From Candidatus Latescibacterota bacterium (lineage in GTDB: Bacteria; Latescibacterota; UBA2968; GCA-2709665): 64,000 nt of DNA. Under the pieces are notes generated by a model that made no database searches, was not told where the DNA came from, and saw nothing but the letters and a program-made list of their open reading frames with translations. The stretch spans positions 832,001-896,000 of the forward strand of contig OZ242358.1 in NCBI GenBank assembly GCA_965208835.1, read 5' to 3'. Of the stretch, positions 1 through 17,100 are shown in pieces. A program made the position numbers and the translations under genes. Every line of letters begins with the position of its first letter. Positions within the stretch are counted from its first letter, which is position 1.

Positions 1-1337
1 GCGCTACCCGGCACTGGACGCGCAGCCTGAAGCACACGTCGGCCCTCAGCCACTACAAGACCAACTGGGATCGCGAGCAAATGTCGGTTGAAGCCACGCG
101 GGGCGGCGTCGTTGGCTTGCCCGGTGGCGCAGGACATCCGGACAGCGACACCAACCTGCTTAATCGCGCTATTTACGACAACGAGATCTTCTATCGCGAG
201 ACGACGATGCGTCACGACCTGAGCTACAAACAGGAGCGGGGCGCTCTGCGGCATACGCTGTTGTTGGGCGTGGCACTCTCCTTCTACAAAGAGCGTGAAG
301 TGCTCGGCGATCGTGTCCATCGCGAGGGCACGCCGGAAGCAGCGGATGCCGATGCGCTTAAAATCGACATCTACGATCCGGAGCCGTACTACGGGCTGAC
401 CATACCCCAGGATTTCGCCCTCTTCCGCAACCGCGAGCGCGAAGAGACCAGTTGGGGCATGTATCTGCAAGACCTGGTGGAACTCGGCGACCAATGGGTT
501 CTGCTGGGGGGGTTGCGCTATGACGGGGTCGACTTCGACGAACGCACGAATCAGCGCGGCAGCTACAGAACCCACGGCCGCAGTAACGGGAGTTTGAGCC
601 CACGCCTTGGCGTCGTCTACAAGCCAGGTGGTGGTTTCTCCCTCTACTCCAGTTACAGCCGCTCTTTCAGACCGAAGTCGGGCGAGAAGATCCTCAATGA
701 ACCGGAGGACGGCGCCACACAGATAACTCCCGATATGGTCGGACCGGTCGACCCCGAGCTGGCAACGCAATTTGAGGTGGGAGGGCGATGGACCGATGCC
801 GACAACCGCTTGAGCGCGACCCTGGCGCTTTACGATCTGGCGCGCACCAATGTCGTCGAAACCAATCCCCGCAACCGCATTTACCGAGTTCAGATCGGGC
901 GCCAGCGCAGCCGGGGCGTCGATCTCGACCTGACCGCGCAGCCGATCCCCCAACTGCGCGCTATCGCCAGCTACGCGTATGTGGACGCGCGCGTCGAAAG
1001 GGACGCTGACCGCCCCGCGTGGGAGGACAACCAACTCGACAATACTCCCGAACACAGCGCCAGTGTGTGGTGCAACTACCGCCATACAGTTGGCCTTGCT
1101 GTGGGTCTGGGCGTAATCTATACGGGAGAGCGTCAGGGCAATCTGGACAATGACTTCATCCTCGACGACTACGTGCGGGTCGATGCCACCGTCACCTACC
1201 GGCTGCAGACCCTGAGAGTGGATCTGAGCGTCAAGAATTTCACCGATGTGGGGTACTACCAGAACGCCTGGCGTCGTGACCGGATCATGCCGGGAACGCC
1301 CAGGAACTATCTGCTGTCACTCGGCTATAGCCTGTGA
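1..1337 (+). CDS. TonB-dependent receptor (siderophore/metal type), C-terminal barrel; 5' end probably outside the window
   Basis: ORF 81..1337 has TBDR barrel motifs (LSPRLGVVYKP, GRQRSRGVDLDL, LSVKNFTD..YY, PGTPRNYLLSLGYSL) but no plug domain or signal peptide. Confidence 0.9.
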   Translation, partial: ATRHWTRSLKHTSALSHYKTNWDREQMSVEATRGGVVGLPGGAGHPDSDTNLLNRAIYDNEIFYRETTMRHDLSYKQERGALRHTLLLGVALSFYKEREVLGDRVHREGTPEAADADALKIDIYDPEPYYGLTIPQDFALFRNREREETSWGMYLQDLVELGDQWVLLGGLRYDGVDFDERTNQRGSYRTHGRSNGSLSPRLGVVYKPGGGFSLYSSYSRSFRPKSGEKILNEPEDGATQITPDMVGPVDPELATQFEVGGRWTDADNRLSATLALYDLARTNVVETNPRNRIYRVQIGRQRSRGVDLDLTAQPIPQLRAIASYAYVDARVERDADRPAWEDNQLDNTPEHSASVWCNYRHTVGLAVGLGVIYTGERQGNLDNDFILDDYVRVDATVTYRLQTLRVDLSVKNFTDVGYYQNAWRRDRIMPGTPRNYLLSLGYSL

Positions 1338-4737: not shown

Positions 4738-5712
4738 ATGAAGGTCTTGTACCTGAACGTACCAGGTATGCTCCAGCCATGGTACGACGATTTGAGAACG
4801 GCGGTTGGTGAAGTGCATGCCGTTTGCCTGTACGATCCCGCGAAACCCATGGCCGGGCAGTTCGATGGTGTGGACGTGGTGGTGGACCAGGGTGGTTCGG
4901 CAGGCACGCGGGCTCTTATCGACGCCGCGCTGGCTGCCCGCGTGAGGCTGTGGCAGGTGCTTGGAACCGGGGTGGACCACGTGGACGTGGCGTATTTCCT
5001 CGAAAAAGGCCTGATGCTTGCCAATACGCCCGGCCCGTTCAGCGCGGTGGCGCTGGCGGAGCACGCGATGTTTCTGATGCTTTATTTCGCGAAACAGTTC
5101 GACGAGCACGTGCGGAACCTCCGGGCGAAGGTGTTCTACTTTCCGGTGAGCGAGGAGCTGGAGGGGAAGACGCTCGGGCTTGTCGGGCTGGGCGCGAGCG
5201 GACAGGCGCTGGCGGCGAGGGCGAAAGCCATGGGAATGCGGGTAGCGGCCGTAGACGCTGTGGACGTCCCCCGGGAACGGCTGGATGAACTGGGGGTGGA
5301 AGTGTTTGCCGCGCCGTCGGAACTGGAATCGGTGCTCACGCAGGCCGATTACGTGTCACTGCACGTGCCGCTGACGTCGAAAACGCGTCACATAATCGAC
5401 AGACAGGCGCTGGCGGCGATGAAGCCAACGGCGGTGCTGATCAACGTGGCGAGAGGGGAGATCGCGGAAGAGGCCGCGCTCGTCGAGGCGCTGCAGAACG
5501 GGGGGATCAGGGGCGCCGGGCTGGATGTGTACGCCGAAGAGCCGCTGCCCGCGGACCATCCGTTTCAGCAGCTGCCGAACGTCGTCGCCACGCCCCATAC
5601 CGCGGGACAGACGTATGGCACATCCAGGAGGCGCGGGGAGGCCTGCGCGGAGAACGTGGAGCGGATCGCGAATGGGCTGGAGCCGTTGTACAGGATTACG
5701 GACGTAGGGTGA
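4738..5712 (+). CDS. D-isomer-specific 2-hydroxyacid dehydrogenase
   Basis: GLVGLGASG Rossmann motif, SLHVPLT, INVARG, LDVY..EP and TPHTAG motifs. Confidence 0.95.
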   Translation: MKVLYLNVPGMLQPWYDDLRTAVGEVHAVCLYDPAKPMAGQFDGVDVVVDQGGSAGTRALIDAALAARVRLWQVLGTGVDHVDVAYFLEKGLMLANTPGPFSAVALAEHAMFLMLYFAKQFDEHVRNLRAKVFYFPVSEELEGKTLGLVGLGASGQALAARAKAMGMRVAAVDAVDVPRERLDELGVEVFAAPSELESVLTQADYVSLHVPLTSKTRHIIDRQALAAMKPTAVLINVARGEIAEEAALVEALQNGGIRGAGLDVYAEEPLPADHPFQQLPNVVATPHTAGQTYGTSRRRGEACAENVERIANGLEPLYRITDVG

Positions 5713-5780
5713 GGTCGGCGACGGGATGTTGACTCCGGTCCGCGACCTTACTTACAGCCGCTCGTACCGCTAATCATGGA

Positions 5781-6413
5781 CTTGACCCGTTCTGTGGATG
5801 TGCCACAACGTTGGAGGCGGCGCACAGGCTGAAGCGTCGTTGGATAGGCATTGATATTGCGATCCATGCCATTAAGCGGGTTGCCGCCCTTCGGTTGCTT
5901 GACAAACTGGGACTTGTCGAGGGTGAAGACTATGCAATCGAAGGCGTTCCTCGTAATCTTGAGGGGTGTAGGGATCGGTGGCGACGGGATAAGTATCACT
6001 TTCAGAAGTGGGCGGTTGAACAGGTGGACGGTTTTGTGACGACAAGGCGTACGGGGGACGGCGGCATAGATGGCCGCTTGTATTCCGATTGTCCGGGAAA
6101 GCCAGACCTGCAATGCATGACTATCGAAGTTAAGGGTGGCGAAAATCCGAACATTACCGTTATGCGGGCTTTGCTCGGGGTCGTGGAAAACGGTCGCGCT
6201 ATGCTCGGCGGGCTGATTCTTCTGGAACCGATAGGTACGATTAAAGAGCGGAATTTCCGGAGGTTCATGGCCCAGGATGGCGAAGTGAAAATCGGCAATG
6301 TCGTTTATCCGAAACTGCAAATGTTGAGCACTCATGAGATCCTGGAGGGGAAACGCTTCGACACGCCTGGGGCGGTCGGTCGCGGGCTAAAACAACCACA
6401 ACTCCGATTATAG
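5781..6413 (+). pseudogene. 5'-truncated N4/N6 DNA methyltransferase fused to an Mrr-like restriction endonuclease domain
   Basis: In-frame LDPFCGCATTLEAAHRLKRRWIGID (SAM-binding motif I) from 5781, then DGGIDG...IEVKGG nuclease motif. The catalytic DPPF/Y half is absent and an in-frame stop lies at 5730. Confidence 0.75.
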
Positions 6414-6424
6414 GGAGCGAAGCA

Positions 6425-6724
6425 ATGAACGCGGATCAAATCAAGCAAATTATCGAATCCAATTTCCCCGAAATACGGTCAAAACGCCTCAAATATGGAT
6501 GGTCCTTTTTCTACAAAGAGATTGTAATCGGTCCAAACCCCTCTCGCATCGCTCGTGTCGAACAGAAGAGCTCAAATCGAAAAGTAGACTTCAAGCCTTC
6601 TATTACCGCCCGAAGGAAAGAAGACGAGACAATCAGGGAAGAGATAACCGACCAAGAGAGCCAGATTTGCGAAATAATAAGACGAGAAATAGATCTTTAT
6701 CTGGAGTATTATGCGAACCCGTAA
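6425..6724 (+). CDS. Hypothetical protein, 99 aa
   Basis: RBS GGGAG, AT-rich ORF directly after the methylase remnant; no recognised motif. Confidence 0.6.
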   Translation: MNADQIKQIIESNFPEIRSKRLKYGWSFFYKEIVIGPNPSRIARVEQKSSNRKVDFKPSITARRKEDETIREEITDQESQICEIIRREIDLYLEYYANP

Positions 6725-7153
6725 GCCCATAACTACTGATTCCGAATTTTAATTTAGGCCCCCCTTTACAAGAACTCTTTTGTCCGCTCTCCCAGGTCGC
6801 CTCCCGCCACCCTCAGAGGATCGCATACCTCGCCGACTTCCGTATATGGGAGCACCCGGTGGTGCTGCGGCCCGAAGCCGTTCTTTTTGAACTCCGCTCC
6901 AATGGCCTCGCCAGCCGGGTTGTCTTCCGTTTAGCCCTGCGACACCGCCGAACGCATCACCGCTCCGATTCGCCATCTGCACCGACGCGCCGTCTTCCGC
7001 TTCTCGTTCCAGAACGGGAGTATCACGTCCAATGTGTTAATCCGGTTCGCCGCCTCCCCCCGGAGTCGACCCCGAAGGAAGCCAGCCCCAGGATTCTACG
7101 AGCATCGCGTCTACGCAACACCTCGGGTCATGTACCGACGCAATACTGCACAT

Positions 7154-7182
7154 TTGCGCAGTTTCATGCAATGTGTTATATT
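7154..7182 (+). promoter_or_regulatory. Putative sigma70 promoter of the Ubl operon with an overlapping imperfect palindrome
   Basis: TTGCGC-17 bp-TATATT with a TG extension; overlapped by the inverted repeat CACATTTGC...GCAATGTG. Confidence 0.5.
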
Positions 7183-7210
7183 AAATGAGTGTTCGTGGCG
7201 GGAGCGAGAG

Positions 7211-7480
7211 ATGTCGGAAAAGGAACACAACGACATCAAGGAAGCGGCAAGCATGTCGTTATCGGCGAATGCGACGGATCTGGCATCGATGCGGGCGATA
7301 GTTGAGCCCATCACCGAATTGACACAAATCGTCGACCCTGATTCATCCGTGACGGGTACAATCTCCCGCGCCGGGATCATCACGCACGCCATTCGACAGG
7401 TTGGTCATCTGGTTCAAACACCGGCAGGACGGCGGTTGTTGACCGTAAGTGCAGGAATAGAAACCGACACAGAGACGTAG
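7211..7480 (+). CDS. Small hypothetical protein, possibly a ribbon-helix-helix regulator
   Basis: RBS GGGAG then ATG 7211; strand-helix-helix-like pattern (SMSLSAN...DLASMRAI...ISRAGIITHAIRQV); first gene of the operon. Confidence 0.5.
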   Translation: MSEKEHNDIKEAASMSLSANATDLASMRAIVEPITELTQIVDPDSSVTGTISRAGIITHAIRQVGHLVQTPAGRRLLTVSAGIETDTET

Positions 7481-7504
7481 TTACACCTAAAGGAGGAATC
7501 CAAC

Positions 7505-7798
7505 GTGGTGCAAGAACCTGGAAACGGCCATGGACCCGTCGGGCCGACGGGGATCGTAAAGGAATTGACCATTTTCATCAATGCTCGGTCGGCGCTTTGG
7601 GACAAGCCGACCATTAGCTTTGCGCAAGTGGTCGAACAGTGGAATAAGCTCGATCCGGATCGACGCGTGATAGGTGATCTTCCGGGCATCGACTGGACGG
7701 CGAAGGACGGAACGAAGGGGATTTTCTATCCGTCCGATAAACCAATGGACGTGGTTGATGAACTGTCGTTCACGATTGACGACTCGTACCTAGCGTAG
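7505..7798 (+). CDS. Ubiquitin-like beta-grasp protein (Multi_ubiq type)
   Basis: LTIFINAR...TISFAQVV...G.F.P...V.D.LSFTI pattern of multi-ubiquitin domains; strong RBS AAGGAGG; immediately upstream of an E1-like gene. Confidence 0.7.
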   Translation: MVQEPGNGHGPVGPTGIVKELTIFINARSALWDKPTISFAQVVEQWNKLDPDRRVIGDLPGIDWTAKDGTKGIFYPSDKPMDVVDELSFTIDDSYLA

Positions 7799-7806
7799 GG
7801 AAGACT

Positions 7807-8943
7807 GTGTCAGAACATGAGTCACGGGCACGTTATGAAGCGGAGCGGCGCGAATGGAAAATCGAGCGTCGAGACTTAGAAATAGGTGCATTAGGAGTAC
7901 CATGTTTTATCGCACCGAATGTCGCAGGTGAGTGTCACATCTGGGTAGGGACTGCATCTGACTCAGACCAACTCGAAGCGAACCATGAATGGCAGCAAGG
8001 TGCTTTACATACAGCAGATATACGAGGTCTTTCCGACGGAAGATTGTTCGACCGATCTGGAACGGAGTTAAAAAAAGGCGTGATTGGGCGTTTTCATTCC
8101 AGCCTTGTTCTATCGATCAAGATAAAAGGTCGAGAATATGAGAATGCATGGGAAGCACTAAACAACTACGTCAAACGGATATACGCGCTGTTCCTTGGCG
8201 GATCCGCATTGAGCGGGGAATCGGCGCCACGCCCTTATACATTCGATGTGCTTGGTGACCATCTGCCGGAAGCAGTCGAGTGGAGGGCTCTGGTAGCTCA
8301 AGAGCGTGTTGCGATTGTCGGACTTGGCGGTGTCGGCGCGTGGATAGCAGACTTTGTTGTCAAGGCCGATCCTCGTGAGGTTCATGGTTGGGACTACGAC
8401 TGCATAGAACCCAAAAACATACTTCGCATGCCAGGTGGACTCGATCCGAACGTCTGGATCGGTAGACCAAAGGCCGAGTGGTTCAAAGAGACCTACTCCC
8501 TCATCCATACGAACGTGCACGGCCACAATGTAAAGGTACTCCCTGAAAATGTGCAGGAGGTCATTGAAAAAGCGACTTTCGCTTTTTTGGCCGTGGACGA
8601 CGCTGATGACCGGATGATGGTGTGTGACACGCTGGCCAATGCGGCAATCCCGTTCATCGTGGCAGGACTCTCACCAGTGCGTAAGGACAAGAGAGTCAAG
8701 GTTTCCATGCGGATAGTAACCGCCCATGTCGGCGTGTCCTCTTGGAGAGAGGCTATCCCTCAAGTTGGCCAGGCGGGACAGGACGACTACGGCAGCCTTG
8801 ACTTGCCCGACGTCTACTCAATTGCTGCGGGTTGGGCGATTCAGTCGTGGCGAAAGATGCGCGGCCAATTCTGGCAGGAGAAAAGGGAAGAGTGCCTAGT
8901 CTATCGTGCTCGTGAGCAGTCTCTCATAGTGAGAGAGGTCTAA
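7807..8943 (+). CDS. ThiF/E1-family adenylyltransferase with N-terminal DUF6791-like (E2-like) domain
   Basis: VAIVGLGGVG, WDYDCIEPKNILRMPG, FAFLAVDD and C-terminal AIQSWRKMRG motifs; ~150-aa N-terminal domain ending SIK...YENAWEALNNYV. Confidence 0.85.
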   Translation: MSEHESRARYEAERREWKIERRDLEIGALGVPCFIAPNVAGECHIWVGTASDSDQLEANHEWQQGALHTADIRGLSDGRLFDRSGTELKKGVIGRFHSSLVLSIKIKGREYENAWEALNNYVKRIYALFLGGSALSGESAPRPYTFDVLGDHLPEAVEWRALVAQERVAIVGLGGVGAWIADFVVKADPREVHGWDYDCIEPKNILRMPGGLDPNVWIGRPKAEWFKETYSLIHTNVHGHNVKVLPENVQEVIEKATFAFLAVDDADDRMMVCDTLANAAIPFIVAGLSPVRKDKRVKVSMRIVTAHVGVSSWREAIPQVGQAGQDDYGSLDLPDVYSIAAGWAIQSWRKMRGQFWQEKREECLVYRAREQSLIVREV

Positions 8944-9019
8944 AGTGTGCTTTTGGAGATGGAGAAAGGAGGGGAAACGTGATTCTCATCCTAACTATGG
9001 TATTAGGAACCGAGAATCA

Positions 9020-9340
9020 ATGGAAATGAAGCCAGTGTTTGTTGAAACAATCCCACAAATACCCGAAATGGAAGAGGGGACACTTTACGTCAGCATGAGG
9101 TTCGCCGTCCTTTCCCACTTTTGTCCATGCGGGTGTGGTCGTTTGGTCGACGTGACGCTGAATCCTGCGACGCGTAGCCTGACCTACGATGGTGAGTATC
9201 TGACTTTAGAACCTTCAATCGGGGTCAAGTTCCCCTGTAGAAGCCATTACTCAATTATTCGGAATGCGATCATGTGGTACCCGCCCATCTCGGAACCGCA
9301 ACTCAGATGGTACAAACGTGTTTGGAATAGATGGAGGTAG
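9020..9340 (+). CDS. DUF6527-like metal-binding protein
   Basis: FVETIP...EEGTLYVS...HFCPCGCG...TLEPSIG...CRSHY.I.RN.I.W signature. Alternative GTG start at 8945. Confidence 0.85.
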   Translation: MEMKPVFVETIPQIPEMEEGTLYVSMRFAVLSHFCPCGCGRLVDVTLNPATRSLTYDGEYLTLEPSIGVKFPCRSHYSIIRNAIMWYPPISEPQLRWYKRVWNRWR

Positions 9341-9437
9341 TCAAGAGAAATGTCACTCTCTTTTTCCGGCAGATTTAGTCAGGACTCCGCCGCTCTCACT
9401 GTCTGTCCTCTCAGCATCTTGATTCGACAGGAAATCC

Positions 9438-10478
9438 ATGTCACTGAATGAAAACTTGCGAAAAGCCAGGCGGCAAAAGAACGACGAGTTCTACACACAG
9501 CTTTCCGACATCGAGAACGAGCTGCGCCACTACACCGGACACTTCCGGGGCAAGGTCGTGTACTGCAATTGCGACGATCCCCGCGTCTCCAGCTTCTTTC
9601 ATTACTTCTCGTACAACTTCGAGCACCTGGGCCTCAAGAAGCTTATCACCGCGTGCTACAGGAACCAGGAACGCGACCTGTTCAGCCGTCACGATTCGGA
9701 GCGGGCGATATGGCTAGAATACAAGGGGAACCCGAAGGGCGGCAGGGTGCCCGATGTTGGGGATATTGGAATCCGTGAGTTTGAAGGGGACGGGGATTTC
9801 CGTAGCGCGGAATGCATCGAGCTTCTGAAGCAGGCGGACGTCGTGGTGACCAATCCGCCGTTTTCGCTTTTTCGCGAGTACGTCGCACAGCTCATGGACC
9901 ACGCCAAGACGTTCCTGATTATTGGAAATGTTAATGCTATCACCTACAAGGAGATATTCCCATTGATTAAGGATAACAGGATGTGGCTTGGCCCGAGTAT
10001 CACGAGTGGGGATCGGGAGTTCGGGGTTCCCGATCATTACCCGCTTACTGCCGCGACGCACAGAATTGACGAGAACGGCAATAGGTTTGTTAGGGTCAAG
10101 GGAGTCAGATGGTTCACCAATCTAGACCACTCGAAGCGCCACGAGGACTTGATCCTCTACAAGCGGTACTCGCCGGAGGAATACCCGGCCTACGACAATT
10201 ACAATGCGATCAACGTGGACAAGACCGCCGACATCCCGATGGATTGGGACGGCGCAATGGGGGTGCCGGTCACGTTTCTAGACAAGTATAACCCGGAGCA
10301 GTTCGAAGTCCTGGGGATAACAGACAGGGACAACAACTCCGGTCTGAAAACGAAAGAATATACCTTGGCAGATGTGCCCAACCCCGGCGATCTGAATAGA
10401 AGGGGCGTTACGAGAGTTGGGGGCAAGCGTAAACCCACTTATGTTCGCCTTCTGATTAAGAGAGTGGTGCCCCAATGA
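9438..10478 (+). CDS. Adenine-specific DNA methyltransferase, EcoRI family
   Basis: KNDEFYT, VVYCNCDDP, GDGDFRS.EC, VVTNPPFSLFREY and MGVPVTFLDKYNPEQF motifs. Confidence 0.93.
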   Translation: MSLNENLRKARRQKNDEFYTQLSDIENELRHYTGHFRGKVVYCNCDDPRVSSFFHYFSYNFEHLGLKKLITACYRNQERDLFSRHDSERAIWLEYKGNPKGGRVPDVGDIGIREFEGDGDFRSAECIELLKQADVVVTNPPFSLFREYVAQLMDHAKTFLIIGNVNAITYKEIFPLIKDNRMWLGPSITSGDREFGVPDHYPLTAATHRIDENGNRFVRVKGVRWFTNLDHSKRHEDLILYKRYSPEEYPAYDNYNAINVDKTADIPMDWDGAMGVPVTFLDKYNPEQFEVLGITDRDNNSGLKTKEYTLADVPNPGDLNRRGVTRVGGKRKPTYVRLLIKRVVPQ

Positions 10479-11564
10479 AAATTGATCTGAACGAAATCAC
10501 AGTCCGCGACCTTGTGGACGAATACCATGACGACGGCGATGGCGGGGTGCGCGGCTATGGCGGCAAGCTCGACATCCGCCCGCCTTTTCAGCGCGAGTTC
10601 GTTTATAAGGACAAGCAGCGCGATGCGGTGATCGAGACGATCAACAAAGGCTTCCCGCTCAATGTGATGTATTGGGCCTTGCGCCAAGACGAAACGTATG
10701 AGGTTATCGACGGCCAGCAGCGCACGATCTCAGCCGCGCAGTATGTGATGGGCGACTTCTCCCTTGACGGGCGGTACTTCCACAACCTGCAAGACGACGA
10801 GCAGGAGCGGATTCTCAATTATGGGTTGCAGGTTTATATCTGCGAAGGGAACGCCAGCGAAAAGCTGGCCTGGTTCAGGATCATCAATATCGCGGGCGAA
10901 AGGCTGACCGACCAAGAGTTGAGAAACGCGGTCTATGCTGGAACGTGGGTGTCCGACGCGAAACGGCATTTCAGCAGGCCGAGGAGTCCGGCTTATTCAG
11001 TCGGAAACAAGTATGTGAAGGGCTCGCCGATCCGACAAGATTATCTTGAAGCCGCGATCCAATGGATCAGGGACGACGGCCAGACGGTCGAGGAGTACAT
11101 GGCCGCGCATCAGCACGACATGACCGCTACCGCCTTGTGGAGTCACTTCCAGTCGGTAATCAACCGGGTAGAAGCGGTCTTTCCGAACTACCGCACGCCA
11201 ATGAAAGGAGTGGATTGGGGCGGGCTTTACGGGCAACTCAAAGACGAGAGCTTGGACCCCGTAGCGCTTGAGGCCAAAGTTGCCCGACTGATGCTGGACG
11301 ACGATGTAACAAAGAACGCGGGCATCTACCCGTATCTGCTCACCGGCGAGGAGAGGCATCTCAATATCCGCGCCTTCTCCAACGCCATGAAGCAGAAGGC
11401 GTTTGAAATGCAAAACGGCATCTGCAAGTCATGCGGGGTGGCGTTTGAGATATCGGATATGGAGGCCGACCACATCAAACCTTGGTCGGAGGGAGAGCAA
11501 GACTGACGAACAGAACTGTCAGATGCTGTGCAAGCCGTGTAATCGCAGAAAGTCCAACAAATGA
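10475..11564 (+). pseudogene. DUF262 (ParB-like/GmrS) plus HNH endonuclease, with a +1 frameshift inside the HNH domain
   Basis: RPPFQREFVY and VIDGQQR DUF262 motifs, then CKSC...[11 protein letters not shown]. ORF stops at 11506, but the +1 frame continues [21 protein letters not shown] to a stop at 11564. Confidence 0.85.
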
Positions 11565-11751
11565 GCACGTTCGGATCTTGCCGGAGCGCAAGTGATTACC
11601 GGGCTAGAGCGCGTTCCAGACTGGTGCATTTTACCTTTACTTTTGTGACAAGGTCAAGTATATTTATTGGGAATATATCTTGGATTTTCTCTTATAGGCA
11701 AAGAACGGCGCTCTCCAATTGCGCTAAAACATAATTGGAAGTGGGGTTCGG

Positions 11752-11824
11752 TGGAACTGACGGGATTCGAACCCGCAACCTTACGCCTCCCAAGCGCACG
11801 CTCTACCAATTGAGCTACAGCCCC
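11752..11824 (-). tRNA. Atypical tRNA: anticodon GGG (Pro) on an Ala-type acceptor stem
   Basis: Complete cloverleaf: GGGGCTG TA GCTC AATTGGTA GAGC G TGCGC TTGGGAG GCGTA AGGTT GCGGG TTCGAAT CCCGT CAGTTCC A, followed by CCG (full CCA not encoded). Confidence 0.88.
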
Positions 11825-11840
11825 ATTGCTTTCTTTGCAG

Positions 11841-11871
11841 TCCCGAAGGGTGTTTAGGCCACCCTTCGGGA
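11841..11871. other. Perfect 12-bp stem-loop between the wHTH gene stop and the tRNA 5' end
   Basis: TCCCGAAGGGTG-tttaggc-CACCCTTCGGGA; no U-tract on the minus strand. Confidence 0.6.
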
Positions 11872-11874
11872 TCT

Positions 11875-12390
11875 TTATTTATCTGCTTCTCCCTCCATCT
11901 CTGGAATAAAACCAGGTGGTTCCAACTTGATTAATTCATCGGCCGATAACGAGTATTGACCATAGCCGTGTTTAACAAGAACGCCTTCTCGTACTAAACG
12001 CCTTAGGAACGTCCCTGAATATTGAGGCTTAAACTCAGAAGGTTCAATGCCATTTGCTATTGCGTATTCACGAAATCCCGCAGGAGTTATGGGTCTGCCG
12101 CCGTTAATTATCGCAGGACCAACAAGAAGTCGAAGTTTGGTTGCTAGACCTCGTGAAGGCTTTTTCTCGGGTTTGGCAGCCTCCAAAGGGGCGTCACCAT
12201 AGCTTTTTGGGTTTTTCCGCACAACCGGGACCATTAAAGAAGAGAATTCTTGTCCATACATTCCTTTGACAAGTGAATGGATTATCCTTTCCATTAGTAC
12301 GGCTTCCTTTAACCGACTTCCACGGATCTTAAATTCAAATTCCACGTTACCTGAAGAAATTGCGATTTTAATATCAGGGGAATCTTCCAT
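11875..12390 (-). CDS. Hypothetical protein with a probable C-terminal winged-helix domain
   Basis: Low-GC ORF; GRPITPAGFREYA...YSGTFLRRLVREGVLVKHGYGQYSL fits a wHTH recognition helix and wing. Start uncertain (12390 or 12450). Confidence 0.6.
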   Translation of the reverse strand: MEDSPDIKIAISSGNVEFEFKIRGSRLKEAVLMERIIHSLVKGMYGQEFSSLMVPVVRKNPKSYGDAPLEAAKPEKKPSRGLATKLRLLVGPAIINGGRPITPAGFREYAIANGIEPSEFKPQYSGTFLRRLVREGVLVKHGYGQYSLSADELIKLEPPGFIPEMEGEADK

Positions 12391-12826
12391 GTCCGTCTCC
12401 GATGGTTTTGATTGTCCGTCTATGTCCGTCCAAAAATACAAAAACAACAATCCAGGCGCAAGTCTTTTTTGATGCTGTCCGTGGTTTCACCAAAATCCCG
12501 CGTCCAAGTTACAAGATTTCCGGAGGGTTATTGTAAAAGCCCTGTATCCGACCATCCCTTCGCACACCTCACGCGTCGTATCCGGGCGTTCCGCCGTCCA
12601 ATCCCGAAAGCTCGACCGGAACCCCGTGCGGCACCGCACCGAAGGGGACGCCAGTCCCGAGCCCTCCTCGAGTCTCCAGCCACCGCATTTGCTTCCTTCT
12701 TACTTTGATTCCAAACATCCCTCACCCCCCGGACAAAAACCATCGCCCCGGGCGGTACGCCGGGTCACGATTCTCTTATGACGAGCCTGGATCGTGAACT
12801 ATGATCATGTTGCCCCGGTGCACTTG

Positions 12827-13206
12827 CCCTGAGCGTGTCGAAGGGTGGCGAAGAGAGGTGAAACGCTGGCACTCGGACAAAGGCGTACCGAGGACCTCGC
12901 AGTAAACGACACATCGAGGCCGTATGTTGCGGCGGATGCTGGGTGATGATTGTCCGACGCAGGGCACCCTGGGAGGGGGTTTTTGTCGCGAAGGCAGGGT
13001 TGACACCGTGAGGCGCAGCTCTCGGCAGGTTTGGGAGACGAGTTATAATCTATTCCCATTTGGAATATAATCTATTTCGACTATTCGCTTTTGTATTGAA
13101 TTGGATTTGGCTTAATTGAGTCCGGCTGTTCTGCGGTATTGCACGAATTGCGAAGTTGCCGCACCTGGTCGAAGAGTATCTGAACGTGGGCATTTCGACA
13201 AGCTCA
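12827..13206. repeat. REP-like motif family C (TGAGCNTGTCGAAG), two copies in opposite orientation
   Basis: CCCTGAGCGTGTCGAAGGG at 12827 and TTCGACAAGCTCA at 13194; further copies at 46394 and 46460. Confidence 0.55.
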
Positions 13207-13489
13207 ATGGCCACGCATTGAGACCGTTTCTTCGACAGGATAGGCACAGGCAGAGACCGAATCTCGACGTACACAACGCATTGAAGGCTTTTTGAACTCT
13301 TCGGGACCTTGGTCTGATTCTACGTGACAATTCCCATGAAGAGTTCACTAAGACAATTCTCTTCAACGTTAGATGAATCGTACACCGAGCGTGTCATGAA
13401 GTCATTCAGTGTGCTTCGCATGCAGTTGTCTGAAAACGTGGCCAGCAGGATGATCGTATTCTGAGGTCGAACATGATTGAGAGGCTTTC

Positions 13490-14104
13490 ATGACTGAGGA
13501 CGACTGCCTGCCCGCGGGGCTTATTGGGTTTGACACTCGTGGGTTTTTCGAGGAAACTGCGAGTCTCACCGTCGATTTGGCTGAAGGAATTCGCAAATCG
13601 AACGTGACGTTGCTTTGGCTCGTTATTCTTTCTCATAATATGCTCCAGAGTGCAATGGCAAATGTGCTGCGTGGAAGCGCCAATATTGGTGCCCTGGACG
13701 AAAAATCGCAAAAGGATCAGATCAGATGGTTGAATGAAATCCGCGCCGGAAATGACACTGCTGAACCGGAAAGGCTGCCTCATCTCGCTGACTTTAAGAC
13801 CCTCCTAAAACGTGTTCGAGATAGGCAAAGCCTATGCCCACCATTGCAATTGAATCAGCAACAGTTAAAGGATCTGGATTCACTGAACAAATTCAGGAAC
13901 GACTTCATTCACTTTATCGACTCCATCTGGACCGTGCATGTTGACGATCTTCGACAACCCATCCTCGCTGCCCTTCAAGTCACTGGTGAAATCATACAAC
14001 ATCCTGAATGCAGGCGCTGGACATGGGATGAGTGCTTTCGAGATCGGGTCAACGGGTATTTGATGAAGATAAGGAACCACGTTGATAGTATGGATGAGTG
14101 CTAA
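13490..14104 (+). CDS. HEPN-motif protein (putative RNase)
   Basis: Mostly helical ~200-aa ORF with an RxxxxH motif (LNKFRNDFIHF) in the usual C-terminal position. Confidence 0.6.
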   Translation: MTEDDCLPAGLIGFDTRGFFEETASLTVDLAEGIRKSNVTLLWLVILSHNMLQSAMANVLRGSANIGALDEKSQKDQIRWLNEIRAGNDTAEPERLPHLADFKTLLKRVRDRQSLCPPLQLNQQQLKDLDSLNKFRNDFIHFIDSIWTVHVDDLRQPILAALQVTGEIIQHPECRRWTWDECFRDRVNGYLMKIRNHVDSMDEC

Positions 14105-17100
14105 TCTGTGAGGAAAGTGAATTGAACCGTGAAATAGAACTGGATCGGAAAGACGTATGGCCCGCGGGGCGTGAGCCCACGGCGCTGGGTGAACTGGCCC
14201 GGATGGAGATTGCGAAGCACATCTGGGACAGCCGCCAGAGTTCCAAGCTGACCGGATTCGAGTACGCAAAGCGCCGGGGAACGCGAAATATGATGGATCC
14301 CTCCCGCCCTCATCTGGATCGGCCGCGGGGACGTACGCGCGTCTCCGCGTTCTGGACCCGTGAGGCGCTGGTGGTTTCGGCGGCATGCGAAGGTCGGACA
14401 GATGGTGAAGACCGCATTGTCGTGGCGATGGTGACTGCGGGAGACCGGCTTCTGCAGTTGGAGTGTCTTTCAGATGGGACCGTCCGGTTACCCGACGGCG
14501 CGGCGCGGGCGGAATTCGATACGGATCAGGCAGACAACGGCTGGTCGGCGCGTCTGACGGTGCCCTGGGGCCTGCTCGGCATTCGTCCCCGGCCCGGGCT
14601 GCAGATTCCCCTGAACGTCGCCCGGTTTACGGATTGGACGGATACCCCGCCTCCCGCGATGTTACCCGACGGATTCGTGGTCAACGGTCTCTCGCGCATC
14701 CGGCCCGGTCTGGAAGTGAGTACGCTGAGCCGGGCGGTACGGTATCCGATCGTCGGCGATCCGCTTCGGGCCGAAAGATTGGGCCGCCTGGTGTTGAGTC
14801 CGCGATTGAAGATCGAGAACCTGAGCCTTCGCGACGAGGGTCTGGCACGGAAAGAAGTGGTGATGAATCTGCGACCTGCGGGCCGGCGGCCTGAATTGCT
14901 GGACGTACGCGTCGCGCTTTCGGATCCCTGCGGACGCGAGACCGTTTTCGTGGACCAGGCACGGGGCGAGGGCGAAACGCGGATTCGGTTGGACTGCCTG
15001 TTCGGTGCGTTCAGGGGCTTCCTGTATCCATACCGGCTCGCGGTCTCGGTTTCCGATCCAGACACCGGCGCGATGCTGGCGGAAGCGCAATGCGAGTTCA
15101 TCCCGCCCCGGCGGATCCGCCTGGACCCGCTGCGCCTGGGCAACGATCAGCGTGGACGCTGCCGATTCCGGATGGCCGGGAACGGTCTCTGGGGCACGCG
15201 GTGGCAGGCGTCCCTGGTGAACGACGCGGGCGAGACGCTGGACAGGGGCAGGGTCGTTGCGGATTCGGACGAGACGGACTTTGATATATGTATCGGTGAA
15301 GTGCCAAGGGGACGTTACAGGCTGCGCCTCGTGCCCGTCGGAATGGGCGCGACGGCCGGTATCGAATGCCCCTGCAACGTCATGGGTACCAGTCCGCACC
15401 CACGCGTTCTGCTGCGCCGCGGGAACGTCGATCGGCTGAGGGCGCAGGCAAAGGAAGGGGGCCTGAAGCCGCACTATGACGCGATGAAGGCGCAGGTGGA
15501 CGAGGTGCTTCGGCGCGGGACAATTAAGGAGTGCAGCCTCACGCCCGATGCGACGGAGATCCGCGAGATCGCAATCGACGACCTGCTCGCCGGGAACGAC
15601 CTGCTGATGCAGGGTCACGCGGAGGATACGCTGTTTCAGCGGGACCCTCACCAGATGATGGCTGCGTCGCTGGTCTATCTGATCGAGGGAGACGACCGGT
15701 ACGGGCTGCTCGCCCGAAAGATGGTCCGGATACTCGTGGAGCACGTGCTCTGGGGAGACCCGAGGGTGTACGGTGCGGACCCTGACCTGATGTGGAAGGC
15801 GATGTACTGCGCGCTGGCGATGGACTGGCTGGGCGACCTGATCCCGACGGATGAACGCAGGGTACTCAACGATCGGCTGATCGAGAACGGGCTGCTGGTG
15901 TACCTGTGGGCCATGGAAAACGACCAGGCCTACTGGAAGGGGAGGATTGCAAATCTGACGCCGATTTCGGACAGCGTGGCGACCGTGCTGGCGCTATGCC
16001 TCCGGGATGAAGCGTTGGACGCGGAAGCCGTTCTCAGGATTGCCCGGGAAGACATCGGAACGCCGATGCGCGCGTTTCCGCCCGATGGGTCCTGGCCGGA
16101 ATCCGTCAACTACTGGGCGGTGTTCCTGCGCGGGGTCATACTGCACGGCGCGGCGATGGAGTCCGCAACGGGCGCGGACGACGGCGTATTTTCATTGCCG
16201 GGCATGCGCGACGCGGGCTATTTCCCCATCTATTTTACCCCGCGCGGTGTTCCGGCGGGGTTCAACGACGGCATGAACACCGGGGCGGCACCTTTTCTGC
16301 ATCTGCTGGCGCGCCGGTATGACGAACCCATTTTCTCGCTCTACGCCGACGCGTACGGCGGCGCGGGCGAAAACAGGCGTTCCGACTGGAATACGATAAT
16401 CTGGCGTTCCCCCGGGATTCCCTATCAGCACCAGGCGCCGCGCACCGACGTGGGCGACAGGCCGACGCCGGCGTTGTTGAGTTCCATAATGACGGGTTTG
16501 AAGCGCCTGCGGGTCTACGAGGAGATCCGGTGGGCCGCGCTCGCCTCGGAATGGCCCGATCCGGAGCTGTACGTGTCGTTCAAGAGCGGATACGCCGCTT
16601 CCGGTTTCGGACATACGAGCCGGGACCTGAACGCGATCCAGGTGGTGGCCGGAGGAGAACCGCTGATCCGGCGCAGCCACGACTACAGTACGCCGCCGGA
16701 GGGATACAGCACCACGCTGGTGGACGGCAAGCCGCAGGGGCCGGGAACGGGGACGTTTCTGTATTGGGAGGAGGCGCCCCGGCATCTGGCGATCGCGGCG
16801 GAAGCGGACGGATCGTTCGGAGAGGATGTCGGGCGGGCACGGCGCCACGTCGTCATGGTCGACGGGCGGTACCTGGTGGTAATGGACGAAGTAAGTAGTG
16901 ACCGGCCGGTCCGGGTGACGTTCATGGCGCATACGGCCGGAGAAGTCGCCAACGCGGATCGGGGTTGCGAAATCAGGGGAATCAAGACAAGACTGTCTCT
17001 GGCGTTTTCGGGAACGGATGTGACGCTGGACCGCGTCGCGTCTCCGGACTGCGTGATGACGCAGCTCACCGACGGGGCGCTGCACGCCACCACTGATGTG

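What the first reader, a model, noticed from the sequence alone, without database searches (positions are those of the whole stretch)
11752..11824. Hybrid tRNA: alanine identity elements with a proline anticodon, a candidate Pro-to-Ala mistranslator
Seen: a fully paired 73-nt cloverleaf with G1:C72, G2:C71, G3:U70, an extra G4:U69, A73, anticodon GGG (11791..11789) and A37. Known: G3:U70 is the dominant AlaRS determinant and AlaRS does not read the anticodon; bacterial tRNA-Pro has C1:G72 and G37 (m1G37, which suppresses +1 frameshifting). The opposite case (Pro inserted at Ala codons) is known from Streptomyces. Inference: if matured it would insert Ala at CCC/CCU codons and might be frameshift-prone. 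Its position in a defence-like island suggests a stress or anti-phage role, a decoy for tRNA-targeting toxins, or relief of polyproline stalling. A drifted tRNA-Ala(GGC) pseudogene is the null hypothesis, but all four stems are intact.
Basis: partly seen in the sequence, partly recalled or inferred. Interest (0 to 1): 0.85.

Follow-up and report, generated by a model that had tools for sequence, protein, structure and literature searches.

The report
Alanine-type tRNA with proline anticodon
A foreign gene island in this bacterium carries an intact tRNA built like an alanine tRNA but reading proline codons, most likely a one-letter anticodon mutant that is little expressed rather than an evolved mistranslation device.

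Summary
Window 11752-11824 (- strand) is a 73-nt tRNA with all 21 stem pairs standard (Rfam 66.9 bits; ARAGORN Pro-GGG). It has G1:C72, G2:C71, G3:U70, G4:U69, A73, anticodon GGG and A37.

Its acceptor stem matches the genome's own tRNA-Ala(GGC/CGC) at 14 of 15 positions. Isotype models built from the phylum's tRNAs give 76.2 bits for Ala and 58.4 for Pro.

The anticodon loop UUGGGAG is the CUGGCAG loop of virus-borne tRNA-Ala(GGC) with C36 changed to G. G4:U69 and the missing CCA are ordinary in such tRNAs.

The gene sits in a low-GC island of about 7.3 kb that three close relatives lack. No second example was found in 185,579 species genomes, viral contigs or a metagenome sample.

It lacks the TTGACA-type promoter seen at half of the host's tRNA genes. 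The host ProRS has the editing domain that clears Ala from tRNAs bearing G35/G36.

Verdict: an alanine acceptor that decodes proline codons by chemistry, probably an incidental, weakly expressed singleton. Expression and charging are untested.

The parts
11752..11824 (-). 73-nt tRNA gene: alanine-type acceptor, anticodon GGG, no encoded CCA
   Evidence: Rfam RF00005 66.9 bits; ARAGORN; cloverleaf minimum-energy fold; Ala model 76.2 bits against Pro model 58.4 bits
11789..11791 (-). Anticodon G34 G35 G36 (reads CCC/CCU). A37 is at 11788 and G38 at 11787
   Evidence: Sequence; Rfam alignment. The loop UUGGGAG compares with CUGGCAG in 118 of 120 viral tRNA-Ala(GGC) pattern matches
11821..11822 (-). 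G3 and G4 of the acceptor stem
   Evidence: Sequence
11755..11756 (-). U70 and U69, pairing with G3 and G4. G3:U70 is the main AlaRS determinant
   Evidence: Sequence. In this genome only the three tRNA-Ala genes share a true G3:U70. The role of G3:U70 is from review passages
11752..11752 (-). Discriminator A73
   Evidence: Sequence
11840..11882 (+). 13-bp hairpin with a T-rich tail, terminator-like on the + strand. It lies 15 nt upstream of the tRNA on the - strand, where it has no U tail
   Evidence: It implies that + strand transcripts from the restriction-modification genes can run antisense across the tRNA gene (inference)
11875..12390 (-). 171-aa orphan ORF directly upstream on the tRNA's strand. 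It is the only plausible source of read-through transcription
   Evidence: No Pfam or PHROG family. No relative in 167 other genomes of the phylum, in viral contigs or in the 5.8-billion protein set, where it found only itself
9438..11506 (+). Type II restriction-modification pair: EcoRI-like methyltransferase (9438-10478) and GmrSD_N/HNH restriction enzyme (10475-11506), convergent with the tRNA
   Evidence: Pfam PF13651 1.7e-142 and PF03235; PADLOC MTase_II 6.3e-126 and REase_II 8.8e-133
5771..13036 (.). Low-GC inserted island that carries the tRNA
   Evidence: GC is 0.44-0.57 in all but one 500-nt bin, against 0.58-0.66 in the flanks. In relatives G009, G011 and G006 the flanks align up to about 5770 and resume at about 13037. 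No tRNA lies at the syntenic site in those three

Best explanation
This is an accessory, horizontally acquired tRNA-Ala gene of the mobile-element/phage type, a tRNA-Ala(GGC) derivative. Its anticodon has shifted from GGC to GGG by a single C36-to-G change. The rest of the alanine identity set and the whole cloverleaf are intact.

By the known identity rules the transcript would be matured by RNase P and CCA addition, charged with alanine by the host AlaRS, and would read CCC/CCU. That makes it a Pro-to-Ala missense suppressor by chemistry.

In this genome its output is probably small or nil. It has no host-type promoter and faces convergent transcription from the restriction-modification genes. 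It competes with three canonical tRNA-Pro. The host's ProRS editing domain recognises G35/G36 and should hydrolyse its Ala ester.

It is most likely an incidental, recent, neutral-to-mildly-harmful variant in a redundant passenger gene, not an evolved mistranslation system.

Shown: structure, identity elements, Ala-like body, island location, uniqueness, lack of promoter match. Inferred: charging, editing, decoding, low expression.
For: Structure and identity:
- The tRNA is real and intact.
- The acceptor plus discriminator is 14 of 15 identical to the genome's own tRNA-Ala(GGC) and (CGC). The next best isotype reaches 10 of 15.
- The Ala model gives 76.2 bits (own Ala 90.2-102.3, own Pro 51.4-65.3). 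The Pro model gives 58.4 bits, inside the non-cognate range (own Ala 53.7-60.0) and far below own Pro at 95.4-98.0.

Normal tRNA-Ala features:
- The same D-loop occurs in metagenomic tRNAs: 112 of 116 pattern matches carry Ala anticodons.
- 118 of 120 viral tRNA-Ala(GGC) pattern matches have the loop CUGGCAG, so the hybrid's UUGGGAG is that loop with C36G and C32U.
- One viral tRNA-Ala(GGC), L221, has the identical acceptor stem including G4:U69. 9 of 113 have G4:U69 and 47 of 113 lack encoded CCA.
- 19 of the 25 listed phage BLAST rows are annotated tRNA-Ala.

Foreign and unique:
- The island is foreign.
- The tRNA is absent from 40 relatives.
- There are no true hits to a GGGG..TAGCTCA..AGAGC..YTGGGR pattern in one genome each of 185,579 species, and none in viral contigs. 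The same pattern with GGC hits at least 120 viral stretches.

Expression and clearance:
- 24 of 47 other tRNA calls have a sigma-70 match of 9/12 or better within 120 nt upstream, mostly with an exact TTGACA. Only 68 of 2000 random sites do. The hybrid's best is 7/12.
- No promoter-like site lies on its strand upstream as far as 13600.
- The host ProRS is the bacterial type with an inserted editing domain. That domain needs G35/G36 and not the acceptor elements (abstract of PMC3973320).
- Maturation without encoded CCA is feasible. Five essential tRNAs also lack it, and a PolyA_pol-family enzyme is present.
Against: - There are no expression, charging or proteome data. No RNA run was available.
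- All 21 stem pairs and the conserved tertiary nucleotides are intact, which a long-dead pseudogene would not be expected to keep. That keeps an active role open.
- Promoter scoring used a simple sigma-70 consensus. 23 of the 47 other tRNA calls also score below 9/12, many of them inside operons. Lack of a match therefore does not prove silence, and read-through from the upstream ORF is possible.
- Overall sequence identity does not single out Ala. The genome's own Asp, Gly and Ala tRNAs all fall at 53-56 of 70 positions, so the Ala assignment rests on the acceptor stem, the loop type and the two covariance models. Other isotype models were not built.
- The closest tRNA-Ala found is only about 80-82% identical, so the GGC parent is inferred and not observed.
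- The database patterns demanded exact D-arm motifs, so hybrids with other D-arms would be missed.
Confidence: 0.55

Rival explanations
1. An evolved, used mistranslator or missense suppressor. The island-borne tRNA is expressed constitutively at low level, or conditionally by read-through from the upstream 171-aa ORF. It inserts Ala at CCC/CCU to diversify the proteome under stress or phage attack, or to suppress an Ala-to-Pro mutation.
For: The cloverleaf is perfect and the Ala identity set complete. C72 removes the ProRS acceptor element. The gene sits among defence genes. The hairpin upstream has no U tail on the tRNA's strand, so read-through from the ORF is possible. The mirror-image case, tRNAProX in Streptomyces, is documented (PMC10404621, passages). 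Engineered tRNA-Ala with proline anticodons do mistranslate in yeast (PMC10543346, passages). Four divergent virus-borne tRNAs pair G3:U70/A73 with a UCU anticodon, which hints that mobile elements may carry such hybrids more often.
Against: It is a singleton: no homologue keeps both features in any collection searched. No promoter match was found. There is no dedicated partner enzyme in the island. The host ProRS editing domain should clear Ala from a G35/G36 tRNA. [quoted passage not shown]
Confidence: 0.17
2. A working extra tRNA-Pro, or a dual Ala/Pro acceptor. ProRS charges it through G35, G36 and A73 well enough that it mostly delivers proline.
For: G35, G36 and A73 are three of the four main bacterial ProRS elements (abstract of PMC3973320). 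The anticodon arm resembles phage tRNA-Pro(UGG) arms.
Against: C72 replaces G72, A37 replaces G37 and G1 replaces C1, although all three are invariant in 15 of 15 tRNA-Pro of the phylum. The Pro model score of 58.4 bits equals that of non-cognate Ala tRNAs. G3:U70 is reported as sufficient for AlaRS (review passage).
Confidence: 0.08
3. A non-translational element: a decoy or target for anticodon nucleases, an integration site, or a regulatory tRNA-like RNA of the defence island.
For: The neighbours are defence genes, and a weak HEPN-like ORF lies at 13490-14104.
Against: The tRNA lies inside the island, not at its edge. Its 3' end is not repeated in the window, and no flanking repeats were found. 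No integrase or other RNA family is present. The HEPN match is below the Pfam cut-off (19.2 against 27.1 bits). No conserved association exists because no homologues exist.
Confidence: 0.05
4. A sequencing or assembly error at position 36, with the true gene being tRNA-Ala(GGC).
For: A single base separates GGG from GGC.
Against: Contigs from three runs of one sample (summed depth 32-86) carry the window sequence with 0 differences across 11400-12500. These runs are probably the assembly's own source, and contigs hide minority variants.
Confidence: 0.03

Closest known systems
Natural tRNA-Ala anticodon variants (human population variants such as tRNA-Ala with a Gly anticodon; tRNA-Ala(CAG) of the yeast CUG-Ala clade)
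   Same: An alanine tRNA body with G3:U70 keeps its AlaRS identity while a changed anticodon reads another amino acid's codons. This is possible because AlaRS ignores the anticodon (review PMC11415595, passages).
   Different: Those cases are eukaryotic. This one is bacterial, reads proline codons, is carried on a foreign island, and is a single occurrence with no expression data.
[quoted passage not shown]
   Same: They have the same predicted outcome: Ala at Pro codons. The proline-anticodon tRNA-Ala variants were the group with the largest growth impact (PMC10543346, passages). C70U tRNA-Pro suppressors were selected in yeast (PMC5389508, abstract in the listing).
   Different: Those are laboratory constructs or selected mutants in a eukaryote without a bacterial-type ProRS editing domain. 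This one is a natural bacterial gene.
Streptomyces/Kitasatospora tRNAProX family (tRNAProA, ProT, ProN) with ProRSx
   Same: These are natural bacterial tRNAs whose identity elements and anticodon disagree, so annotation by anticodon is wrong (PMC10404621, passages).
   Different: The polarity is opposite: proline identity with Ala, Thr or Asn anticodons. That family is conserved across several genomes and has a dedicated ProRSx and unusual features (G21, A33, A34, A15:A48). None of these apply here.
Allo-tRNAs with G3:U70 (8/4 and 9/3 cloverleaves)
   Same: These are metagenomic tRNAs with non-Ala anticodons and G3:U70 that inserted alanine in E. coli (PMC5389517, passages).
   Different: They have non-canonical 8/4 or 9/3 acceptor/T-stem geometry and long variable arms. 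This tRNA is a canonical 7/5 class I cloverleaf.
Phage and mobile-element tRNA-Ala(GGC) genes
   Same: They share the acceptor stem (identical in L221, including G4:U69), the AAUYGGUAGAGC-type D-loop, the YUGGNAG loop with G38, and frequent lack of encoded CCA. The best database hits are phage tRNA-Ala.
   Different: Position 36 is G here, not C. The best identity is only about 80-82%.

Membership tests
tRNA (Rfam RF00005) | Cloverleaf with conserved D- and T-loop nucleotides, scoring above the gathering threshold | tested here: met
   66.9 bits against a threshold of 29, full-length match, no non-standard pairs. ARAGORN agrees.
tRNA-Ala (substrate of AlaRS) | G3:U70 wobble pair in the acceptor stem | tested here: met
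   G at 11822 and U at 11755. U70 is invariant in 22 of 22 phylum tRNA-Ala.
tRNA-Ala (substrate of AlaRS) | A73 discriminator with G1:C72 and G2:C71 | tested here: met
   Sequence. 14 of 15 acceptor positions equal the genome's own tRNA-Ala(GGC/CGC).
tRNA-Ala (substrate of AlaRS) | Best-scoring isotype model is Ala | tested here: inconclusive
   Ala 76.2 bits beats Pro 58.4, but the score is 14-26 bits below the cognate Ala tRNAs. Only these two isotype models were built. Overall identity to the genome's Asp, Gly and Ala tRNAs is similar.
tRNA-Ala (substrate of AlaRS) | Anticodon NGC | tested here: not met
   The anticodon is GGG.
tRNA-Ala (substrate of AlaRS) | Actual alanylation by AlaRS | not testable with these tools
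   This needs in vitro charging or acid-gel/tRNA-seq analysis. One AlaRS gene is present in the genome.
Bacterial tRNA-Pro (substrate of P-type ProRS) | Anticodon with G35 and G36 | tested here: met
   GGG. The elements are named in the abstract of PMC3973320.
Bacterial tRNA-Pro (substrate of P-type ProRS) | C1:G72 with A73 | tested here: not met
   The pair is G1:C72 here. C1 and G72 are invariant in 15 of 15 phylum tRNA-Pro.
Bacterial tRNA-Pro (substrate of P-type ProRS) | G37 (the site of m1G37) | tested here: not met
   A37 at 11788. G37 is invariant in 15 of 15 phylum tRNA-Pro.
Bacterial tRNA-Pro (substrate of P-type ProRS) | High score with the Pro isotype model | tested here: not met
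   58.4 bits, against 95.4-98.0 for the genome's tRNA-Pro and 53.7-60.0 for its tRNA-Ala.
tRNAProX/ProRSx mistranslation system (Streptomyces) | Proline identity elements with a non-proline anticodon, plus a dedicated second ProRS | tested here: not met
   The polarity is opposite. Only one tRNA_edit-bearing ProRS was found in the genome. A second ProRS without an editing domain was not searched for.
Allo-tRNA (8/4 or 9/3) | Non-canonical acceptor/T-stem lengths and a long variable arm | tested here: not met
   Canonical 7-bp acceptor, 5-bp T stem and 5-nt variable loop.

The most novel reading that the evidence does not exclude
The tRNA is a natural, horizontally transferable Pro-to-Ala missense suppressor. 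It would be transcribed conditionally with the upstream orphan ORF and be active in translation. It would also be one member of a broader, unrecognised class of mobile-element tRNAs that keep the AlaRS acceptor identity while carrying non-alanine anticodons. The four divergent virus-borne G3:U70/A73 tRNAs with a UCU anticodon seen would belong to the same class.
Probability: 0.12. Interest if true: 0.75.

Novelty: new member of a known kind. Interest (0 to 1): 0.4.

Why it matters
Natural tRNAs whose charging identity and anticodon disagree are the clearest genetic route to programmed mistranslation. In bacteria the documented cases go the other way: proline identity on Ala, Thr or Asn anticodons.

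A bacterial alanine-identity tRNA that reads proline codons would be the mirror case. I found no report of one in four literature searches.

It would also give a ready test of how a bacterial ProRS editing domain deals with an Ala-tRNA that has the proline anticodon but not the proline acceptor stem.

It is a practical warning for annotation as well, since anticodon-based tools name this gene tRNA-Pro.

As it stands it is a single gene with no sign of selection or expression, so its weight is that of a good test substrate and not a discovered system.

Tried and rejected
Integration-site idea: rejected. The tRNA's 3' 22-mer is unique in the window, no flanking repeats were found, and the island edges (about 5770 and 13037) are far from the tRNA.

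Close homologues:
- None in 40 relatives.
- No viral contig matches either tRNA half exactly.
- Phage and plasmid BLAST gave at most 82% full-length identity, and the hits are ordinary tRNA-Ala or tRNA-Pro.
- The two genome contigs pattern hits (L011, L012) are tRNA genes with insertions in the anticodon region. ARAGORN does not call them as tRNAs.

Context through the upstream ORF: it is an orphan, with no Pfam, PHROG or convincing PADLOC family. No phage-family hit was found for 10 island ORFs.

Other RNA families in 5500-14300: none at E up to 1.

Expression: no RNA holder was listed among the sequencing runs. This says nothing either way.

Sponge-metagenome run X5: it holds pieces about 95% like 11445-11734 and 12049-12499, but no contig covers the tRNA. 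The tRNA's state in that relative is unknown.

The high-depth pieces at 11512-11570 in X1-X3 come from other organisms. The stretch is single-copy in the genome.

Overall-identity ranking against the genome's own tRNAs did not discriminate isotypes.

My script flagged tRNA-Lys(UUU) and a 94-nt 'tRNA-Arg(GCG)' call as G3:U70. The first is a one-base register error in the ARAGORN boundaries: U8-A9 fit only the register that gives G2:U71. The second is a doubtful ARAGORN call. I did not count either.

Supplementary files of the papers were not consulted. The tRNAscan-SE 2.0 supplement listing isotype/anticodon disagreements (cited) could hold similar bacterial cases that I could not see.

Full report
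**What is there.** Window 11752-11824 on the - strand is the only tRNA in the 64-kb window. It matches Rfam's tRNA model end to end at 66.9 bits with every stem position a standard pair. Its minimum-energy fold is a cloverleaf. Read from the sequence, the acceptor stem is GGGGCUG/CAGUUCC, which gives G1:C72, G2:C71, G3:U70, G4:U69, C5:G68, U6:A67 and G7:C66. The discriminator is A73. The anticodon loop is UUGGGAG, so the anticodon is GGG at 11791-11789, with A37 and G38. CCG follows A73, so CCA is not encoded.

**The genome's tRNA set.** The window lies in a 5.18-Mb, 59.5% GC, single-contig genome with 48 ARAGORN tRNA calls. It has a full canonical set: tRNA-Pro GGG, CGG and UGG, and tRNA-Ala GGC, CGC and UGC. 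This tRNA is therefore an extra.
- In 15 of 15 distinct tRNA-Pro sequences taken from genomes across the phylum, C1, G72, G37 and A73 are invariant.
- In 22 of 22 tRNA-Ala, G1-G4, C69, U70, C71, C72 and A73 are invariant.
- The hybrid's acceptor plus discriminator equals the genome's tRNA-Ala(GGC) and (CGC) at 14 of 15 positions, differing only by C69 to U. The next isotype reaches 10 of 15.
- Apart from a register artefact and one doubtful call, only the three tRNA-Ala genes and this gene have G3:U70.

**Isotype test.** tRNAscan-SE was not available, so I built two covariance models from the phylum's tRNAs and scored the hybrid and the genome's own six Ala and Pro tRNAs with filters off.

| Model | Hybrid | Own Ala tRNAs | Own Pro tRNAs |
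|---|---|---|---|
| Ala | 76.2 bits | 90.2-102.3 | 51.4-65.3 |
| Pro | 58.4 bits | 53.7-60.0 | 95.4-98.0 |

Despite its GGG anticodon the hybrid looks non-cognate to the Pro model and intermediate to the Ala model. Two caveats apply:
- Only these two isotype models were built.
- Whole-sequence identity does not separate Ala from Asp or Gly tRNAs of the genome (53-56 of 70 positions).

The Ala assignment rests on the acceptor stem, the loop type and the models.

**Origin.**
Of these, 112 carry Ala anticodons and none carries GGG. The D-loop, which has U20 instead of G20, is therefore a normal tRNA-Ala variant.
- In viral contigs a pattern for the Ala-type 5' half with anticodon GGC hit at least 120 stretches. 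118 of 120 have the loop CUGGCAG. The hybrid's UUGGGAG is that loop with C36 to G, plus C32 to U.
- Among the 113 of those with a fully paired acceptor, 9 have the tandem G3:U70/G4:U69 and 47 lack encoded CCA.
- One of them (L221) has exactly the hybrid's acceptor stem. Vibrio phage nt-1's tRNA-Ala(UGC) also has G4:U69.

G4:U69 and the missing CCA are thus ordinary for mobile-element tRNA-Ala. They are not extra signals, and they are not signs of decay. The nearest sequences found are phage tRNA-Ala genes at 78-82% identity. The GGC parent is inferred, not seen.

**Rarity.**
- No relative of the hybrid exists in 40 related genomes. The best hits, at 76-77%, are their canonical tRNA-Ala.
- A pattern requiring the Ala-type 5' half and YUGGGR in the loop found only two stretches in one genome each of 185,579 species. 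Both are tRNA genes with insertions in the anticodon region that ARAGORN does not call.
- The same pattern found nothing in 2.9 million viral contigs.
- These patterns need exact D-arm motifs, so hybrids with other D-arms would escape.

**Context.**
- The gene sits in a low-GC stretch. The flanking genes, a 2-hydroxyacid dehydrogenase and monomeric isocitrate dehydrogenase, are syntenic in the genus.
- Alignment with three close relatives shows homology ending near 5770 and resuming near 13037. This defines an insertion of about 7.3 kb.
- A second variable piece lies at 13110-14130.
- None of the three relatives has a tRNA there.
- The island holds a weak ubiquitin-like ORF, a ThiF/E1 protein, a DUF6527 protein, an EcoRI-like methyltransferase and a GmrSD_N/HNH restriction enzyme.
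- It also holds a 171-aa orphan ORF immediately upstream of the tRNA on the same strand.
- No integrase, phage family or other RNA family was found.
- The tRNA is internal to the island and is not an attachment site.

**Can it work?** Maturation is feasible. Five essential tRNAs of the genome also lack encoded CCA, and a PolyA_pol-family enzyme is present. Charging follows from published rules. G3:U70 is reported as sufficient for AlaRS, which does not read the anticodon (review passages). Bacterial ProRS needs G72/A73 and G35/G36 (abstract), and G72 is missing here. So alanine is the expected amino acid, and CCC/CCU the expected codons. Those codons are 44% of proline codons in 2663 long ORFs.

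**Factors against a large effect.**
- 24 of 47 other tRNA calls have a sigma-70 match of 9/12 or better within 120 nt upstream, mostly with a perfect TTGACA. Only 68 of 2000 random sites reach that. The hybrid reaches 7/12, the background mode.
- No promoter-like site lies on its strand up to 13600.
- The hairpin 15 nt upstream is terminator-like only on the + strand. Transcripts of the restriction-modification genes can therefore cross the tRNA in antisense.
- The host ProRS is the bacterial type with the inserted editing domain. That domain recognises G35/G36 and is indifferent to the acceptor elements, so it should deacylate the Ala-charged hybrid.

**Reads.** Contigs of three runs from one sample carry the stretch with no differences. 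They are probably the assembly's own data. A sponge-metagenome run holds pieces of the neighbouring ORF and intergenic DNA that are about 95% identical, but no contig covers the tRNA. No RNA run was listed.

**Verdict.** The gene is an anticodon-shifted, horizontally acquired tRNA-Ala. By chemistry it is a Pro-to-Ala missense suppressor. By context it is a lone, promoter-less passenger whose product would also be edited. I put 0.55 on the incidental, low-activity reading and 0.17 on a used mistranslator. Smaller odds go to proline charging, a non-translational role or an error.

It is a new member of a known kind, natural tRNA-Ala anticodon variants and hybrid-identity tRNAs. I found no report of a natural bacterial example in four searches.

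A side observation may widen the topic. Four divergent virus-borne tRNAs called Arg(UCU) carry G3:U70 and A73.

Noticed in passing
L324:112-182 (+), L361:8354-8429 (+), L364:4744-4817 (-), L425:10305-10376 (+): Four divergent tRNAs in viral contigs are called tRNA-Arg(UCU) by ARAGORN but have a fully paired acceptor stem with G3:U70 and A73, the alanine identity set. L364 and L425 have clean 5-bp anticodon stems; L324 and L361 have a 31:39 mismatch. They may form a virus-borne class of alanine-acceptor tRNAs reading AGA.
   Followed up: partly
L041:244-317 and 1007-1080 (+), L097 (-), L111 (-): Metagenome contigs carry tRNA-like genes with a GGGGAUG...CAUCUCCA acceptor (G3:U70) but 74-75-nt bodies and odd anticodon loops that look 8 nt long. 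ARAGORN gives ambiguous calls such as Ala|Cys (tgca) and Arg|Ala (acgc).
   Followed up: no
window 7505-9340 (+): An operon encodes a 97-aa ORF with a weak multiubiquitin match, a ThiF/E1-like protein (378 aa; PADLOC E1-E2 hits) and a DUF6527 protein (131 aa). It resembles bacterial ubiquitin-like conjugation defence operons.
   Followed up: partly
window 9438-11506 (+): A type II restriction-modification pair: an EcoRI-like adenine methyltransferase, and a restriction enzyme with a GmrSD_N (DUF262-type) domain and a C-terminal HNH.
   Followed up: partly
window 13037-13109 and 13110-14130: A 70-nt intergenic segment is conserved in three relatives. It contains the repeated motif ATCTATTCC...GGAATATAATCTATTTC and lies upstream of the 1058-aa heparinase-like gene. 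In this genome it is separated from that gene by a second insertion of about 1 kb, which carries a 204-aa ORF with a sub-threshold HEPN match. The site is an insertion hot spot: G009 has a different 1.1-kb insert and G011 has none.
   Followed up: partly
G000:C1, upstream of tRNA genes genome-wide: About half of the genome's tRNA genes have an exact TTGACA -35 box, 16-17 nt spacing and a TAnnnT -10 within 120 nt upstream. It is a clean promoter signature, usable for annotating this genome.
   Followed up: partly
G000:C1:168721-168799 and 2026995-2027088: The only tRNA-Asp is 79 nt long with an enlarged D-loop. ARAGORN also reports a 94-nt 'tRNA-Arg(gcg)' that looks like a false call.
   Followed up: no
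L012:5950-6035 (-) and L011:5518-5600 (+): A proteobacterial MAG has a tRNA-Gly(CCC)-like gene with an insertion of about 30 nt in the anticodon arm. A Nomurabacteria MAG has a GGGG-start tRNA 5' half followed by a long insertion, probably an intron.
   Followed up: no
window 11445-11734 and 12049-12499: A sponge-metagenome run (X5) holds short contigs about 95% identical to parts of the island around the tRNA. A related element therefore exists in another sample, but the tRNA itself is not covered.
   Followed up: partly
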